The notes beneath the pieces were generated by a model, which did no database searches, was not told the DNA's origin, and saw only the letters and a list, made by a program, of their open reading frames with translations. The position numbers and the translations under genes were made by a program. From positions 448,001-512,000 of the forward strand of contig CBDCCI010000001.1 of the NCBI GenBank assembly GCA_965214705.1: a stretch of DNA of 64,000 nucleotides, written 5' to 3'. Positions 45,057 through 63,119 of the stretch are shown one piece after another. The stretch is from Alphaproteobacteria bacterium. GTDB lineage: Bacteria; Pseudomonadota; Alphaproteobacteria; UBA828. Position 1 is the stretch's first letter, and each line of letters opens with the position of its first letter.

Positions 45057-46215
45057 GACGCCCGCTCGCTTCGGCCCCGCGCAACGGCGCCAAAGCGCCG
45101 ACGCACGACCGAACCTGTCTCCGCTTGAGCCGGGCTGACAGCCCTCGGCTCACACCCCGCTCAGTCCTCGCAGCGTGCGCCCGCATGCCTGCCGAAAGAC
45201 CGGCGCGAGCGTCGATTTTATGCGCAACTCTGCTGCCGGTGGATGCCGCCTGACGCTGACATCAGCGCACTTTCCACATAGCTCAACTTCGCCTCTCGTG
45301 GCCCGCGGCTTCGTTCAAAAGGGTTGGGCAGGCTCTCTCTCGAGAGCCTGCCCAACCCTTAACCTTCTACCCGGTCCGATATGCCGACGACTTCCTGATC
45401 TTCGTGGCGGGCGGTTACGACGATGCGGCTGCTGAGAAGCAGGCGCTCGCGGACTGGCTGCGCGAGGAGATGGGGCTGACGCTATCGGAGGAGAAGACGC
45501 GGATCACCAGACTGACGGAAGGATTCCGGTTCCTCGGATGCCGGGTTCGTCTCAAAGGGGACGACCATGACGGCTACATGTGCCGGGTCGAAATCCCGAA
45601 GGAGGCGATCAGTGACTTCTGCCGGCGGATCAAGCAAGTGCTGAATCAGCGGACGCGGACGCGCTCGCTGAGAAGCGTGCTCCAGGAAATCAATCCAATC
45701 CTCCGGGGGTGGGGCCACTACTACCGCCACTGCATCGGGGCCAAGCGCATCCTGTCCAGTCTGGACTGGTATGTGTGGCGACGGCTCTGGCTGTGGATGC
45801 GGGGTAAGCACGACGGCGCCTCCCCGCGACGGGTGTACGCTTCTTGGTCGAGGCCGAGCCGGCAGTATCCCGGCGCTCGGGTCTGGGCCGATGGCGACAC
45901 TGAGCTGTACCAAATGGGCCGGATTCCGGTCATGCAGTTCAAGCTCAATTGGATGAAAACTCCTGCCTTCACGAAAGCCTTTGGCGAGCCGGGTGCATAA
46001 CGAAAGGTGCACGCCCGGTTCTGAGAGAGGGCGCGAGAAACCTGTGGTGCGTGAGGATCACCAGGCGCTCGCGTCCTACTCTACCGGACCCCTGTTTTTG
46101 TTTCCTGCAAGCTTTCACCGGCGCGGCGCCGGCGCAGCGATGAAAGGCGCGGTGCTGGCCGCGGGCTGGGCAACGGGATCGAGGGCGAGCCGCTCCCGGT
46201 GGCGCTCGTCACCGC

Positions 46216-46443
46216 TCACAGCATCGGGTGGGTGTCGAGGAGGTGTCGGGCGACCTCGCGGACGCGATGGCGCTCGTGCACCCTGACGGGACCGCGGGGG
46301 TCCTCGGACAGGTGCACCACGTAGAATACCTCGCCGCGGTTGAGGATGTCGTCATGGCGATAGAGGTAGCCAACGTGGTCGCCGTCCTGATAGACGCGGG
46401 CTTCGTTCTCACCCACCCGCCGGAACCTGATGTCGCTGCTCAT
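46216..46443 (-). CDS. Small hypothetical protein, homolog of 8020..8319
   Basis: GGAGAG RBS, MSSDIRFRR...FYVVHLSEDPRGPV. Confidence 0.7.
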   Translation of the reverse strand: MSSDIRFRRVGENEARVYQDGDHVGYLYRHDDILNRGEVFYVVHLSEDPRGPVRVHERHRVREVARHLLDTHPML

Positions 46444-46519
46444 TGTGCTCTCCCCGTAGCGTGATGCCGGCGCGGAGAGGACTCTCTCTCCTCTCCATGC
46501 GGCTCGCCCGCCGCGCGCC

Positions 46520-59695: not shown

Positions 59696-60742
59696 TCACC
59701 CCGTCCCAACTGTCCGCCGGCGCATGAAGCGAACCGCGTCCTCGGGGGCGAGTTGGATGCGCACAAATGCGCGGACGGCGCCCAAGTCGAACGCTTGCAG
59801 ATCCTCGTTGAGGTCGCCGAGGCGCGGAGCGAGGGCTAGCGCTTCGATGCCGGCCGCTTCGGCTCGTTCGGTGAGCACCGCGACCGCCGTATCGCCTGCG
59901 GGATCGTTGTCTCGCGCGATGTAGAGCCGTCGCAGACCGGCAGCCAGTTCGAGGGCGGCGAGGTGGTTCGCCGAGAGCGCCGCCGCCATGGGCATGGCGG
60001 GCAGCGCGCATCGCAGCGACAGCATCGTCTCGATGCCTTCGCCGGCGGCGAGGACGTTGCCGGCCGCACCGAACCGGACGGCATGGCCGAGAAGGTCGCC
60101 CATCGCGCGTCGCGGCGTATCGATCGGCGCCTTGCCCAACCCGTCCGGGGCGATCCAGGTGCGATGCACGCCGGTGATCGCGCCCGAGAGGTCGGTGACG
60201 GCGGCGATCATCGCCGGCCAGGTCTCGGTCGGCGCATGCCCATCCGGGCGATACCAGCAGCGCGGATGGAAGCGGAGCGCTTCGCAGCTCGTCAGATGTA
60301 CGATCCCGCGGTTGCGCAGGTACGCCTCGGCCAGCGTGCCGGCGATCGGTCTGGCGATCGCCCAGAGCCTGCGCGCAGCTTCGGCCGAGCCCCTCGGGGC
60401 GGGCGCTCTTGACGCGACCGGCGGTTCGGCCCGGGGCAGCGACAGGAAGCGCCGCGCCTCCTCGGCGACCTCGCGGAACTCCGTGAGCCCGCAGCTCTCG
60501 CGGATCACGTCGAGCAGGTCGCCGTGCTCGGCCGAGGCCGCATCGCTCCAGCGCCCGGCGGCCCCAGGGCCGGCCTCCGGCCCGCTCAGCCGCACGTACA
60601 TCGACCGGCCGGGCGTGTTGCGCACGTCGCCCACCATCCAGTAGCGGCCCTGACGCCGACCCTTCGACAGATAGTGGCGGCAGACCGCCTCGGCGTCGCG
60701 CGCGAGGCGCCGTGCCAGCTCGGAAGCGTCGCGCGGCATCAC
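59696..60742 (-). CDS. Toprim primase-like protein (inverted paralog with different C-terminus)
   Basis: First ~282 aa identical to 52738..53766. Confidence 0.85.
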   Translation of the reverse strand: MMPRDASELARRLARDAEAVCRHYLSKGRRQGRYWMVGDVRNTPGRSMYVRLSGPEAGPGAAGRWSDAASAEHGDLLDVIRESCGLTEFREVAEEARRFLSLPRAEPPVASRAPAPRGSAEAARRLWAIARPIAGTLAEAYLRNRGIVHLTSCEALRFHPRCWYRPDGHAPTETWPAMIAAVTDLSGAITGVHRTWIAPDGLGKAPIDTPRRAMGDLLGHAVRFGAAGNVLAAGEGIETMLSLRCALPAMPMAAALSANHLAALELAAGLRRLYIARDNDPAGDTAVAVLTERAEAAGIEALALAPRLGDLNEDLQAFDLGAVRAFVRIQLAPEDAVRFMRRRTVGTG

Positions 60743-60788
60743 GCGACCCTCCCCGCGGGACTGAGGTTATGTTGCCGAGAAACCGCAA

Positions 60789-63119
60789 GGTTAAGGGTTG
60801 GGCAGGCTCTCTCTCGAGAGCCTGCCCAACCCTTTTGAACGAAGCCGCGGGCCACGAGAGGCGAAGTTGAGCTATGTGGAAAGTGCGCTGATGTCAGCGT
60901 CAGGCGGCATCCACCGGCAGCAGAGTTGCGCATAAAATCGACGCTCGCGCCGGTCTTTCGGCAGGCATGCGGGCGCACGCTGCGAGGACTGAGCGGGGTG
61001 TGAGCCGAGGGCTGTCAGCCCGGCTCAAGCGGAGACAGGTTCGGTCGTGCGTCGGCGCTTTGGCGCCGTTGCGCGGGGCCGAAGCGAGCGGGCGTCTCAC
61101 GGTTTCCCCCTGTGGGTCGGCGGCAGCGCCGGCGGGCCGCGCGTCGAGCGGGGCTCATGGCGGCGGCGGATTTCGCGGACGAGGCGCATGACGCCGCCGC
61201 AGTGGGGGCAGGCCACGGGCGCGGTGCCGATCTCGGGCTCTTCGTCGGGCTCGGCCTGAGCGCCGTCCACGCTTCCCTCGGGGGCGGCGCAGCCGAGGGC
61301 GCCGAGAGCCTGGCGTGCTCTCTCCAGCGTGCTGGCGCGGCAGCCGTTGGCGAGGATGCCGAAGTAGCGAATGCGGTGCATGCCGTCCGGCAGGACGTGC
61401 CTCAGGAAGCGGCGGATGAACTCGTCGGCGCTCACGGTGGCGATGCCGTAGCGCGGCTTTCTCTGCCCCGGCGCCTTGGGCTTTCGGTGGCGGAAGGAGA
61501 CCGTCTCGCCGTCGAAGGAGACGATGCGGCTGTCGGAGATGGCGATCCTGTGCGTGTAGTGCGACAGGTACCGGAAGACCTGCTCAGGCCCGCGGAAGGG
61601 CCGCTTGGCGTAGACCACCCAGTCCCTGGCCCGGGCGGCGGCAAGCGTGGCGTGGAACTCGCCGGGATTGGCGAGGTGGGCGAGGGTGCCGTGGAACTCC
61701 AGGTCCCCCCGGCCGTGGGCGCGGGCGAGCTCCTCGAGGAAGAGGCGGCGGAACAGGCTGCCGAGGACCTTGACGGGGGCGAGGAAGGTGGTGCTCCCCG
61801 TCTTCCACTCGCCACTGTCTACGTCGAAGCCCGCGTTGGGCACGACCACGTGCAGGTGCGGGTGGAAGCGGAGCTTCTGATCCCAGGTATGGAGGACCGC
61901 GGTGCCGCCGATGCGCATGCCGCCGTGGCGGGGATCGGCGGCGATGGTGCGCAGGGTCTCGGCGACGGCCCGGAAGAGGATGTCGAACACCACCCTGCGG
62001 TTGCAGAAGGCAATGGCGGCAACCTCCTTGGGCAGGGTGAAGACCACATGGAAGTAGGGCACCGGCAGGATGTCCCCGGCGCGCTCCTCGCTCCAGAGGT
62101 TGGCGGCGAGACCCTGGCAGGTGGGGCAGTGGCGGTTGCGGCAGGAGTTGAAGAGCGGATGCTCGCGCCCGCAGCCCTCGCAGGCGTACATGTGGCCGCC
62201 GAGCACGGCGGTGCGGCACGCCTCGATGGCGCCCATGACCTTGAGCCGGGCGGCGTCGATGCGCCCTTTGTGGCGCTCACGGAAAGCGGCGCCGGCGCGG
62301 CGGAAGATCTCCGCCACGCCCGCGCGTTCGGCCTCCACGCGCCGTCAGTTGCGCAACGCTGCGAAGCCTGAGATCGGGTGGTCGAGGCCCTCGAACATCT
62401 TGCCGGTGACGCGGGCGTAGTGACGGGTCGTGTTCGCGCTTCGATGGCCGAGCATGTCCCGGATCACCTCGATATCGCCGCCGCGCTCGAGGAGATGGGT
62501 CGCCGCCGAATGGCGCAGGCAATGGAAGGTGTAGCTGCGGTCGAGCTCGGCAATGTCGCGCGCCCTCCTGAAGGCGGCCTGCAAGGTCTCCGTTGCGATG
62601 GGCCTGTCGAGCGAGACGCCGTAGAAGAGCCAGTTCGTCGGACGCGGCCAGATGTTCCTGTAGTAGACGCGCAAGTAGTGGATGACGATGTCCGGCAACG
62701 GTGCCATTCTCTCGGTGCCGCCTTTGCCGGAGGGGATGTGCAGCAGCTTCTTCTCCGACAGGATGTCGCCGACCTTGATGGCCAAGGTCTCGGAGATGCG
62801 GAGCCCGCCGCCATAGCCGGTGACAATGGCAGCACGGTGGCGGAGGTCGGGTGTCGCAAGGATGAGGTGCTCGACCTCCTGCTCCGACATGTAGCGCGGC
62901 AGCTTGCCGGGCTTCTTGCGGGAGCGCAGGCCGGCGACATGGTCAGGCCAGCCGAGTGTGTCGATGTAGAGGAAGTTCAGCGCGGCGAAGGAGACGTTGG
63001 TCGTGCCCGGACTGAGCCCCTTGTCGATCCGCCCCAGGTACCACTGGCGCACCTGCTCGGCGTCGAGCTCGTCCGGCGAGGCGTCGTAGTACCTGGCCAG
63101 GTTCTTGATCTCGCAGATG
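60789..63119 (-). mobile_element. Element A copy 4, interrupted in its recombinase by IS1634
   Basis: Reverse complement of copy 1 with a few SNPs; loop GAGA in element orientation. Confidence 0.9.

What the first reader, a model, noticed from the sequence alone, without database searches (positions are those of the whole stretch)
45305..60848. Flip/flop terminal hairpin in a tyrosine-recombinase + HUH transposase element
Seen: all four copies of element A end in a perfect 19-bp stem AAGGGTTGGGCAGGCTCTC/GAGAGCCTGCCCAACCCTT. In element orientation the loop is TCTC in copies 1 and 2 (45338-45341) and its exact reverse complement GAGA in copies 3 and 4 (58123-58126). The rest differs only by scattered SNPs. 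Known: flip/flop loops are a hallmark of hairpin transfer or template switching at HUH-nicked origins (parvovirus termini, circovirus origin palindromes). IS91 elements use HUH rolling-circle chemistry, and to my knowledge the role of the recombinase in this two-gene subgroup is unresolved. Inference: transposition passes through a hairpin or cruciform intermediate that randomises loop orientation, possibly resolved by the recombinase in a protelomerase-like way.
Basis: partly seen in the sequence, partly recalled or inferred. Interest (0 to 1): 0.88.

Follow-up and report, generated by a model that had tools for sequence, protein, structure and literature searches.

The report
Inverted loop in IS91 end hairpin
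A jumping gene present in about ninety copies ends in a hairpin whose four-base loop occurs in two mirror orientations, but each orientation is copied faithfully when the element moves, so the difference looks like a rare copying slip at a palindrome and not a built-in flip-flop.

Summary
All four window copies of a 2,666-bp IS91-family element (XerC/D-like tyrosine recombinase plus Y2-HUH transposase) end in a perfect 19-bp stem. The 4-nt loop is TCTC in copies 1-2 and its reverse complement GAGA in copies 3-4.

The whole genome holds 94 such hairpins: 84 GAGA, 8 TCTC and 2 with symmetric flanks. That is far from 50:50.

The 7 TCTC copies of the main family are closer to each other than random sets of 7 (102 of 20,000 permutations). 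About 29 related hairpin ends from six other genomes and eight metagenome contigs all keep the TCTC-type polarity, marked by a conserved C·A or A·A stem mismatch.

The GAGA form differs from the ancestral form by loop inversion plus repair of that mismatch, which one template switch can produce. A tandem junction also shows a 4-nt palindrome-perfecting insertion.

Ordinary SNPs are as reticulate as the loop, so repeated switching cannot be shown; 1-3 flips suffice.

The recombinase shows no protelomerase match. Available reads were contigs only, and they confirmed GAGA but not TCTC.

Verdict: the hairpin is a conserved oriIS-end palindrome, the loop inversion is a rare heritable template-switch-type mutation, and interest is modest.

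The parts
42699..45364 (+). Element copy 1 (2,666 bp; loop TCTC), inserted in a group II intron RT/maturase gene
   Evidence: blast chain C2:490699-493364, 99.96% to copy 2; flank ORF with GIIM domain
47333..49998 (+). Element copy 2 (reference copy; loop TCTC)
55484..58149 (+). Element copy 3 (loop GAGA), inserted in the middle recombinase gene of a three-recombinase (RIT-like) unit
   Evidence: uninterrupted paralogous site in C1 and C3 and contigs joining 55482 to 58149
60789..63119 (-). Element copy 4 (element positions 336-2666; loop GAGA in element orientation). The rest lies beyond a 4,763-bp insertion outside the window.
45319..45360 (+). Right-end hairpin of copy 1: 19-bp stem, loop TCTC at 45338-45341
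49953..49994 (+). Right-end hairpin of copy 2, loop TCTC at 49972-49975
58104..58145 (+). Right-end hairpin of copy 3, loop GAGA at 58123-58126
   Evidence: contigs of runs X1, X2 and X15 cover it with 0 other letters
60793..60834 (-). Right-end hairpin of copy 4, loop GAGA in element orientation (reads TCTC on the + strand at 60812-60815)
47402..48442 (+). Tyrosine recombinase gene of copy 2 (346 aa from a TTG start; XerC/D/A/IntI-like)
48449..49690 (+). IS91-family Y2-HUH transposase gene of copy 2 (413 aa; an HLH (H-hydrophobic-H) motif and a Y-x3-Y pair read by eye in the translation)
47333..47346 (+). Left terminal 14 nt (terIS side), the exact inverted repeat of 49939-49952
49939..49952 (+). 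Subterminal 14-nt inverted repeat that directly abuts the hairpin on its inner side
47342..47367 (+). Two overlapping short palindromes (7-bp and 6-bp stems) at the left end. The first 40 nt are invariant from base 3 on in all 93 left ends listed; four copies vary in the first two bases.
   Evidence: read from the sequence printed
49995..49998 (+). Terminal AACC after the hairpin. Insertion lies next to a TTG/TTT/TTC flank (CTTG-like target).

Best explanation
The 42-nt hairpin is the conserved subterminal palindrome of the oriIS (right, target-adjacent) end of a 2,666-bp IS91-family element. The element carries an XerC/D-like tyrosine recombinase gene upstream of its Y2-HUH transposase gene and has about 91 copies in this genome.

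The two loop orientations are two alleles of this palindrome, not a per-transposition flip-flop. The ancestral polarity has a TC-type loop, with an unpaired C or A on the left arm facing an A on the right arm. Every relative examined keeps it.

In the lineage that burst in this genome, the loop and the inner right arm were re-copied from the left arm and loop of the complementary strand. That template switch inverts the loop to GAGA and turns the C·A mismatch into C-G in one step. This form then amplified to 84 copies.

A small, closely related group of 7 copies, including window copies 1 and 2, carries TCTC on the perfected stem. They arose either by a second inversion or as survivors of a pre-flip intermediate.

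Each orientation is inherited when the element transposes.

Shown: the sequences, the counts, clustering by descent, stem covariation, conserved polarity in relatives, target preference and the absence of a target duplication.

Inferred: the oriIS assignment (by analogy with IS91), the template-switch mechanism, and whether it acted during chromosome replication or during rolling-circle copying.
For: - Counts: of 94 hairpins, 84 are GAGA, 8 are TCTC and 2 have symmetric flanks (one search gave 84, 6 and 3 variants).
- Descent: the 7 TCTC copies among 81 main-family copies have a mean pairwise difference of 1.33 against 3.10 for random sets of 7 (102 of 20,000 permutations, indel counted once). 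With the indel columns dropped the figures are 1.05 against 3.08, 25 of 20,000. Window copies 1 and 2 lie 4.6 kb apart and differ at a single position outside the loop (element position 160).
- Relatives: G005, G008, G017, G018, G184, ten ends in G014, five diverged ends in G000 and 8 metagenome loci all have loops TCTC/TCCC/TCAT/TCAC/TGGC/TAAC, with the non-pair C·A or A·A on the same arms. The 98% G000 copy C1:465112 keeps a TCTC loop on a T-A pair. No flipped end was seen.
- Structure: 6 of 19 stem pairs show changes on both sides; 86.8% of cells pair against 79.9% in shuffles (0 of 500 reach it); slid controls give 23-48%.
- Mismatch: pair 27-40 is unpaired in 5 of 8 full-length rows, C-G only in the burst family, and T-A in one 98% copy.
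- Other palindrome-templated changes: the tandem dimer junction at C2:646584 has a 4-nt GGTT insertion that makes the 14-nt repeat, hairpin, AACC and next copy's left end a perfect palindrome.
- Literature: passages of PMC8794818 name loop inversion, compensatory change and stem extension by insertion as template-switch patterns.
- Family features: right flanks start with TT in 67 of 83 distinct flanks, 42 of them TTG. The left flank ends in C in 47 and in T in 29 of 93. There is no target duplication. This matches the CTTG/GTTC target next to oriIS and the subterminal palindromes described for IS91, IS801 and IS1294 (passages of PMC13181058).
Against: - On an ML tree of 88 copies with the hairpin columns dropped, the loop needs 6 changes, no fewer than many shuffles (492 of 2,000 shuffles need 6 or fewer). 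Each TCTC haplotype has a GAGA twin at 0-4 differences. Taken at face value this looks like repeated switching.
- Ordinary SNPs need 4-6 changes on the same tree, and 8 of 10 pairs of common SNPs show all four gametes. The tree is therefore unreliable and cannot decide either way.
- In a 399-nt tree the ~98% subfamily (GAGA) groups with a TCTC copy and the main family groups with another TCTC copy (support 91/88, not starred; outgroup barely alignable). This would need parallel flips or a recombination within the last ~30 nt.
- TCTC is over-represented at right ends that abut an IS91-type left end: 3 of 4 against 5 of 88, p 0.0017; without the solo hairpin 2 of 3, p 0.015. The test is post hoc and the loci may not be independent. 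This would fit flipping at a circle- or tandem-type junction, that is, a link to transposition.
- The TCTC loci were not verified in reads.
- With the four indel columns counted singly, the clustering test is not significant (0.12).
Confidence: 0.62

Rival explanations
1. Flipping is coupled to rolling-circle transposition, but at low frequency. The loop inverts, and the palindrome is perfected, when the replisome or TnpA passes the junction of right end and left end in a circle or tandem dimer. There the 14-nt inverted repeats lengthen the palindrome to 33-37 nt per arm. Flipped circles then insert.
For: TCTC is enriched at junction-type right ends: 3 of 4 against 5 of 88, Fisher p 0.0017; 2 of 3, p 0.015 without the solo hairpin. 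The only tandem dimer carries TCTC plus the palindrome-perfecting GGTT insertion. IS91 forms ss and ds circles with abutted ends (passages of PMC13181058 and PMC5714925).
Against: The association is post hoc, rests on 4 loci, and three of them share the same neighbouring element, so they may be related by descent. About 90 insertions need only 1-3 flips, so any coupling would be under roughly 3% per event (inference). No flip was seen in about 29 related ends. Ordinary replication of a long palindrome would give the same enrichment.
Confidence: 0.17
2. The loop is swapped by ectopic recombination or gene conversion between oppositely oriented copies. Because the arms are a perfect palindrome, hairpins of inverted copies are direct repeats in the duplex. 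An exchange in both arms then gives a copy the reverse-complement loop.
For: A solo hairpin at C1:3505992 has a regular right-end junction (AACC plus TTG flank) on both sides. This is the product expected from an exchange within the hairpin between two inverted copies. Recombination among copies is pervasive: mosaic copies exist and 8 of 10 SNP pairs show four gametes.
Against: Only 19 nt of homology lie on each side of the loop. The reciprocal tail-to-tail product was not found among the 94 hairpins. This route does not explain the mismatch repair that accompanies the first flip.
Confidence: 0.1
3. The element's tyrosine recombinase acts on the palindrome, as a protelomerase-like hairpin resolver or as an invertase, and sets or switches loop orientation.
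For: The recombinase gene is intact in all 76 aligned copies of exactly 2,666 nt, of 88 aligned. The palindrome resembles a core site with two inverted arms and a short asymmetric centre (inference only).
Against: The protein matches XerA, XerC, XerD and integron integrase models and structures. No protelomerase is among its 12 PDB matches at E<=0.001. Orientation is stable through about 90 insertions and in all relatives. Subterminal palindromes at oriIS are also described for IS91, IS801 and IS1294. From recall, not from a call, those elements lack such a recombinase. A 4-nt spacer between 19-bp arms cannot hold two crossover sites for an inversion (established knowledge of tyrosine recombinases).
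Confidence: 0.03
4. The TCTC loops are assembly or polishing artefacts of a palindrome inside a 90-copy repeat.
For: The TCTC loci could not be checked. Only Logan contigs were available, and no listed piece covers 49953-49994.
Against: An artefact would not fall on copies that share SNP background (102 of 20,000) or on two neighbouring copies. The change is an exact 4-nt reverse complement. TCTC-type loops are the rule in independent assemblies of relatives.
Confidence: 0.04

Closest known systems
IS91 family insertion sequences (IS91, IS801, IS1294; ISCR relatives)
   Same: Y2-HUH transposase with an N-terminal zinc-binding domain. No target duplication. CTTG-like target next to the end downstream of tnpA. 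Subterminal palindromes at both ends, as in passages of PMC13181058.
   Different: A second gene for an XerC/D-like tyrosine recombinase lies upstream of tnpA. From recall, not from a call, ISfinder/TnPedia note such a subgroup with unknown role; two searches found no paper on it. The oriIS palindrome here is a perfect 19-bp stem with a 4-nt loop, 4 nt from the end, preceded by a 14-nt inverted copy of the left terminus.
Flip/flop terminal hairpins of parvoviruses (AAV ITRs; rolling-hairpin replication)
   Same: An HUH enzyme, a hairpin next to the presumed nick site, and two forms that are reverse complements of each other.
   Different: Parvoviral flip and flop arise at every round by hairpin transfer at a physical DNA end and occur about equally (established knowledge; the AAV model is named in a figure legend of PMC5714925). 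Here the hairpin is internal to the chromosome, the ratio is 84:8, the orientation is inherited, and relatives have one polarity only.
Template-switch mutations at hairpins (loop inversions, compensatory changes, stem extension)
   Same: An exact reverse-complement loop between inverted repeats, a simultaneous mismatch-to-pair change, and a 4-nt insertion in one stem half that extends the palindrome. These are the patterns listed in passages of PMC8794818. Recurrent small hairpin inversions in plastid and avian DNA appear in the listing (titles and abstract starts only).
   Different: Those cases concern rRNA, microRNA or non-coding plastid hairpins. Here the hairpin is the functional end of an active rolling-circle transposon with about 90 copies, so one event is amplified and copies recombine.
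Protelomerases (TelK, TelN, ResT)
   Same: Tyrosine-recombinase chemistry and a palindromic DNA target.
   Different: No sequence match to any protelomerase structure. The Pfam and NCBIfam hits are Xer and integron-integrase types. Nothing here points to a hairpin telomere.

Membership tests
IS91 family | Y2-type HUH transposase with N-terminal zinc-binding domain | tested here: met
   PF04986 at 2.7e-54, PF14319 at 4.3e-30. NF033538 'IS91 family transposase' at 382.5 bits against a cut-off of 125. An HLH (H-hydrophobic-H) motif and a Y-x3-Y pair read by eye.
IS91 family | No target-site duplication | tested here: met
   The uninterrupted paralogous site holds a single CTTG. The joint 55482 to 58149 skips exactly 2,666 nt with 4 ambiguous letters.
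IS91 family | Tetranucleotide target (CTTG/GTTC type) next to the oriIS end, downstream of tnpA | tested here: met
   67 of 83 distinct right flanks begin with TT (42 TTG, 14 TTT, 10 TTC) after a terminal C. The left flank ends in C in 47 and T in 29 of 93. Compare.
IS91 family | Subterminal palindromes at oriIS and terIS | tested here: met
   Right-end 19-bp hairpin with covariation. Left-end 7-bp and 6-bp palindromes read.
IS91 family | Rolling-circle transposition with ss/ds circular intermediates | not testable with these tools
   Only indirect evidence: one tandem head-to-tail dimer at C2:643960-649295.
Parvovirus-type flip/flop (hairpin transfer) | Both orientations produced at each replication round, about 1:1 | tested here: not met
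   84 GAGA to 8 TCTC, binomial p 4e-17. TCTC copies cluster by descent. Relatives show one polarity.
Parvovirus-type flip/flop (hairpin transfer) | Hairpin at the physical end of a linear molecule that primes synthesis | tested here: not met
   The hairpin lies inside chromosomal contigs, 4 nt from the element end.
Protelomerase system | Protelomerase-type enzyme | tested here: not met
   The best PDB matches are XerA, XerD, IntI4 and XerH. No protelomerase is among the 12 matches at E<=0.001. NCBIfam hits are Xer and integron-integrase models, all below their cut-offs. Fold comparison was not done.
Template-switch mutation at a hairpin | The changed segment equals the reverse complement of the facing segment, flanked by inverted repeats | tested here: met
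   The flip 42-mer is the reverse complement of the flop.
Template-switch mutation at a hairpin | Parallel change in the adjacent stem (mismatch becomes a pair) or stem extension by insertion | tested here: met
   C·A becomes C-G together with loop inversion in the burst family. GGTT insertion at the tandem junction. That both changes came from one event is inferred.

The most novel reading that the evidence does not exclude
The oriIS hairpin of this recombinase-bearing IS91 subgroup is a strand-switching hotspot tied to the rolling-circle junction stage. When right and left ends are abutted, in a circle or a tandem, the 14-nt inverted repeats extend the palindrome. Copying across it then yields loop flips, mismatch repair and palindrome extension. 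The loss of a conserved unpaired base, together with the flip to GAGA, removed a strand-discrimination mark and preceded the burst to about 90 copies. That would make the two loop forms a natural record of strand switching at an HUH transposon origin.
Probability: 0.15. Interest if true: 0.6.

Novelty: new member of a known kind. Interest (0 to 1): 0.33.

Why it matters
The copies act as a natural loop-swap experiment. An element with either loop orientation, and with or without the conserved stem mismatch, has spread: 58 uninterrupted copies have both genes intact, 52 with GAGA and 6 with TCTC. The transposase therefore probably reads the stem and the terminal motif, not the loop, and the nick is probably not in the loop.

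The case is also a clean example of loop inversion together with a compensatory change. The authors of PMC8794818 called this combination the strongest but extremely rare signature of template switching.

It is a caution as well. In a multicopy, recombining repeat family, mapping a character on a copy tree overstates recurrence, because ordinary SNPs need 4-6 changes on the same tree.

It does not open the question of what the recombinase does.

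Tried and rejected
Reads. The look-up of sequencing runs offered only Logan contigs for the holders. Read laying on window 49900-58400 with X1, X2, X15 and X3 showed contigs matching the GAGA hairpin at 58104 with 0 other letters in X1, X2 and X15. No listed piece covers the TCTC hairpin at 49953-49994 (182 pieces were not shown), so the artefact test for TCTC is open. 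The contig that skips copy 3 is explained by uninterrupted paralogous units elsewhere (C1:1589967-1593701, C3:1780843-1784080). It is not evidence of excision.

Copy tree. The ML tree with hairpin columns dropped gives 6 loop changes, and shuffles need 4-8. I rejected it as a measure of recurrence because SNPs that were used to build the tree need 4-6 changes, and 8 of 10 SNP pairs fail the four-gamete test.

Rooting. Rooting the subfamilies with the ~82% relative failed: 167-171 differences in 399 nt.

Collection scans. The genome-contig scan with a 16-nt pattern was too unspecific. The metagenome scan for the exact stem with any loop found 0. A second scan with a 21-nt motif of the relatives found 8 loci.

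Genome searches. The genus holds only 21 genomes. A class-wide transposase search covered 401 genomes, 15 with a match, with at most 4 places scored per genome. It gave one close relative with a 4-nt-loop hairpin (G184) and distant ones (about 50% identity) with large-loop subterminal inverted repeats. No second multi-copy perfect-stem family was found, so flipping could not be tested independently elsewhere.

Thermodynamics. The two orientations differ by at most 0.9 kcal/mol as RNA or DNA, which gives no basis for selection on stability.

Literature. Searches found no paper on the recombinase-bearing IS91 subgroup or on loop inversion at IS91 ends. This is a statement about those four searches only. 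Supplements were not opened.

Full report
**Observation.** None is expected in 100 shuffles. The hairpins are at 45319-45360, 49953-49994, 58104-58145 and 60793-60834. Read in element orientation, copies 1 and 2 have loop TCTC, and copies 3 and 4 (copy 4 on the minus strand) have GAGA. The flip 42-mer is the exact reverse complement of the flop. As single-stranded DNA the hairpin folds at about -26 kcal/mol on either strand and in either orientation, z -8.8 to -10.5.

**The element.**
- The repeat is 2,666 bp (window 47333-49998 for copy 2).
- It encodes a 346-aa tyrosine recombinase (PF00589, PF13495) and a 413-aa transposase (PF04986 Y2_Tnp, PF14319). The transposase scores 382.5 bits on NF033538 'IS91 family transposase' against a cut-off of 125. 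Its translation shows an HLH (H-hydrophobic-H) motif and a Y-x3-Y pair, read by eye.
- The recombinase matches XerA, XerC, XerD and integron-integrase models, all below their curated cut-offs. Its best solved relatives are XerA, XerD and IntI4, and no protelomerase is among its 12 matches.
- The hairpin lies downstream of the transposase gene and is followed by only AACC.
- Of 83 distinct right flanks, 67 start with TT (42 TTG, 14 TTT, 10 TTC). The last base of 93 distinct left flanks is C in 47 and T in 29.
- An uninterrupted paralogue of the site of copy 3 holds a single CTTG. Contigs of three runs join 55482 to 58149, skipping exactly 2,666 nt, so there is no target duplication.
- These are the features given for IS91, IS801 and IS1294: a CTTG/GTTC target next to oriIS, downstream of tnpA, and subterminal palindromes at oriIS and terIS (passages of PMC13181058). 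I therefore read the hairpin end as oriIS, by analogy.
- Directly inside the hairpin lie 14 nt that are the exact inverted repeat of the left terminus.

**All copies in the genome.**
- The window is C2:448001-512000 of a 7.92-Mb, three-contig genome.
- BLAST found 97 chains. I aligned 88 of them, those that reach the right end and start by element position 340; 9 partial chains were left out.
- A pattern scan found 94 hairpins of this stem type. They are 84 GAGA, 8 TCTC of defined orientation, and 2 with symmetric flanks.
- The 8 TCTC are 6 with the exact stem, one 98% copy with a T-A pair at the former mismatch, and one 95% partial copy with a C·A mismatch and a compensated G-to-C change.
- 84 against 8 departs from 1:1 with p 4e-17.
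- Both genes are intact in 58 uninterrupted copies of exactly 2,666 nt, 52 GAGA and 6 TCTC. Both forms have therefore spread.

**Orientation against the SNP background.**
- In the 81-copy main family, TCTC (7 copies) sits on four haplotypes of the five common SNPs. Each of these also occurs with GAGA, and most TCTC copies have a GAGA twin at 0 differences.
- On an ML tree with the hairpin columns dropped, the loop needs 6 changes, and 492 of 2,000 shuffles need 6 or fewer. Taken alone this would read as repeated switching.
- It cannot be taken alone. Ordinary SNPs that helped build the tree need 4-6 changes on it, including one with the same minor count of 8 that needs 5. Eight of ten pairs of common SNPs show all four gametes, and mosaic copies exist. 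The copies recombine, so the tree overstates recurrence for every character.
- A test that needs no tree points to descent. The 7 TCTC copies differ from each other by 1.33 on average, against 3.10 for random sets of 7 (102 of 20,000). With the 4-nt indel columns dropped the figures are 1.05 against 3.08, 25 of 20,000. With the four columns counted singly the result is 0.12.
- Window copies 1 and 2 are 4.6 kb apart and differ at a single position outside the loop (element position 160).
- Orientation is thus inherited through transposition. About 90 insertions need between one and three flips.

**Relatives.**
- Related right ends were read in G005, G008, G017, G018 (one each), G014 (ten) and G184 (one).
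- They were also read in six diverged ends of G000 itself (three ~82% copies, C3:432414, and the 95% and 98% copies) and in eight metagenome contigs covering five distinct sites.
- That is about 29 ends. Their loops are TCTC, TCCC, TCAT, TCAC, TGGC or TAAC.
- The stem covaries: 6 of 19 pairs change on both sides, and 86.8% of cells pair against 79.9% in shuffles (0 of 500 reach it), with 23-48% when the partners are slid.
- One position is a conserved non-pair, with C or A on the left arm facing A on the right arm. The 98% copy is the exception, with a T-A pair there. This gives the hairpin a polarity that does not depend on the loop. No end has the opposite polarity.
- Flipping is therefore not a property of the family at large. 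It appears only where the stem has become a perfect palindrome.

**How the flop form arose.**
- The burst family differs from the ancestral-type hairpin of the 95% copy in two ways. The loop is inverted, and the right-arm A has become G, so C·A becomes C-G.
- Suppose a nascent strand that has copied the left arm pairs with the right arm of the sister template, copies loop and left arm there, and returns. It then acquires exactly the reverse-complement loop and a right arm perfectly complementary to the left. One event gives both changes.
- This is inference. It matches the patterns listed for template-switch mutations: loop inversion, loop inversion with a compensatory change, and stem extension by insertion in one stem half (passages of PMC8794818).
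- The third pattern is present too. In the only tandem dimer (C2:643960-649295), GGTT is inserted between the 14-nt repeat and the hairpin. This makes repeat, hairpin, AACC and the next copy's left end a perfect palindrome. A fold-back of the nascent strand at that junction explains it.
- The TCTC copies on the perfected stem are either a second inversion or survivors of a point-mutated pre-flip form. The data do not decide.

**Points against, and open points.**
- In a 399-nt tree the ~98% subfamily (GAGA) groups with the 98% TCTC copy, and the main family groups with the 95% TCTC copy (91/88, not starred). Without recombination in the last ~30 nt this needs parallel flips. A template switch would give the identical product each time, so parallel origin is possible.
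- TCTC is enriched at right ends that abut an IS91-type left end: 3 of 4 against 5 of 88, p 0.0017; 2 of 3, p 0.015 without the solo hairpin. The test is post hoc and three of the loci share a neighbour. Longer palindromes may flip more often in situ, or flips may arise at circle or tandem junctions during transposition.
- A solo hairpin at C1:3505992 has regular right-end junctions on both sides. This shows that exchange within the hairpin between inverted copies has occurred. It offers another route to a swapped loop.
- The TCTC loci could not be checked in reads. Only contigs were served, and none listed covers 49953-49994. GAGA at 58104 is confirmed in three runs. The clustering of TCTC by descent argues against an artefact.

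**Comparison and verdict.**
- The element is a member of the IS91 family; four defining features were tested and met.
- From recall, not from a call, it belongs to the subgroup with an upstream integrase-like gene. Searches found no paper on that subgroup.
- It does not behave like parvoviral flip/flop: the ratio is not 1:1, the hairpin is not at a physical DNA end, and the orientation is inherited.
- It shows no protelomerase feature.
- The inversion is a known kind of mutation caught at the working end of an active rolling-circle transposon.
- The useful by-product is that neither the loop sequence nor the conserved mismatch is needed for spread.

Noticed in passing
G000 C2:643960-649295 (outside the window); junction hairpin at C2:646584-646625 (L161): Head-to-tail tandem dimer of the element. 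At its junction a 4-nt GGTT insertion turns the 14-nt repeat, hairpin, AACC and next copy's left end into a perfect palindrome with 37-nt arms.
   Followed up: partly
G000 C1:3505992-3506033 (L162); a similar case at G019:C230 about 985-1044 (L151): Solo hairpins without an element body, flanked symmetrically by the terminal 4-5 nt and TTG-type flanks on both sides. They look like the product of an exchange within the hairpin between oppositely oriented copies, or of a fold-back.
   Followed up: partly
window 53556-55483 and 58150-59900: Three consecutive tyrosine recombinase genes (ORFs 53823-55070, an interrupted middle one, and 58658-59671), resembling a recombinase-in-trio unit. The middle gene is split by element copy 3. 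Intact paralogues lie at C1:1589967-1593701 and C3:1780843-1784080, and a second unit (C3:2310570) carries the element at the same position.
   Followed up: partly
element position 1306 (would be window 56789 in copy 3); example L171 = G000 C1:39433-41081: A 1,649-bp IS110-family element (PF02371, PF01548) sits at the same position inside the transposase gene in 12 copies. Five further copies have insertions of other sizes there. Contigs of X1, X2 and X15 show the same junction as loose ends at 56789. This suggests site-specific targeting of one IS by another, or spread of the interrupted form in trans.
   Followed up: partly
main-family copies genome-wide; element positions 160, 820, 1722, 1774, 2201: Five common SNPs occur in 19 combinations among 81 copies, and 8 of 10 pairs show all four gametes. 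Recombination or gene conversion among the IS copies is pervasive.
   Followed up: yes
window 45365-46000: Copy 1 interrupts a group II intron reverse transcriptase/maturase gene (a YADD-like motif just after the junction; GIIM domain in ORF 45404-46000).
   Followed up: no
window about 50000-52624 (minus strand): A second IS91-like element ('IS-B', at least 13 copies in the genome) lies tail-to-tail with copy 2. Its left end starts with the same TTGAAC motif, and three of the 13 copies are preceded directly by the hairpin end of the main element.
   Followed up: partly
window 50003-50014, against a contig of X1 and X2 (loose end at 50011): A paralogous contig carries the 8-nt core between ATGT and ACAT as its reverse complement. 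This may be another small hairpin-loop inversion, or a graph artefact.
   Followed up: no
five right flanks (e.g. C2:513217, C2:55784) and three others (e.g. C2:697146): Several copies share identical 30-nt right flanks beginning CGAACTTCC. Either the element inserted repeatedly at one site of another repeat, or a composite moved as a unit.
   Followed up: no
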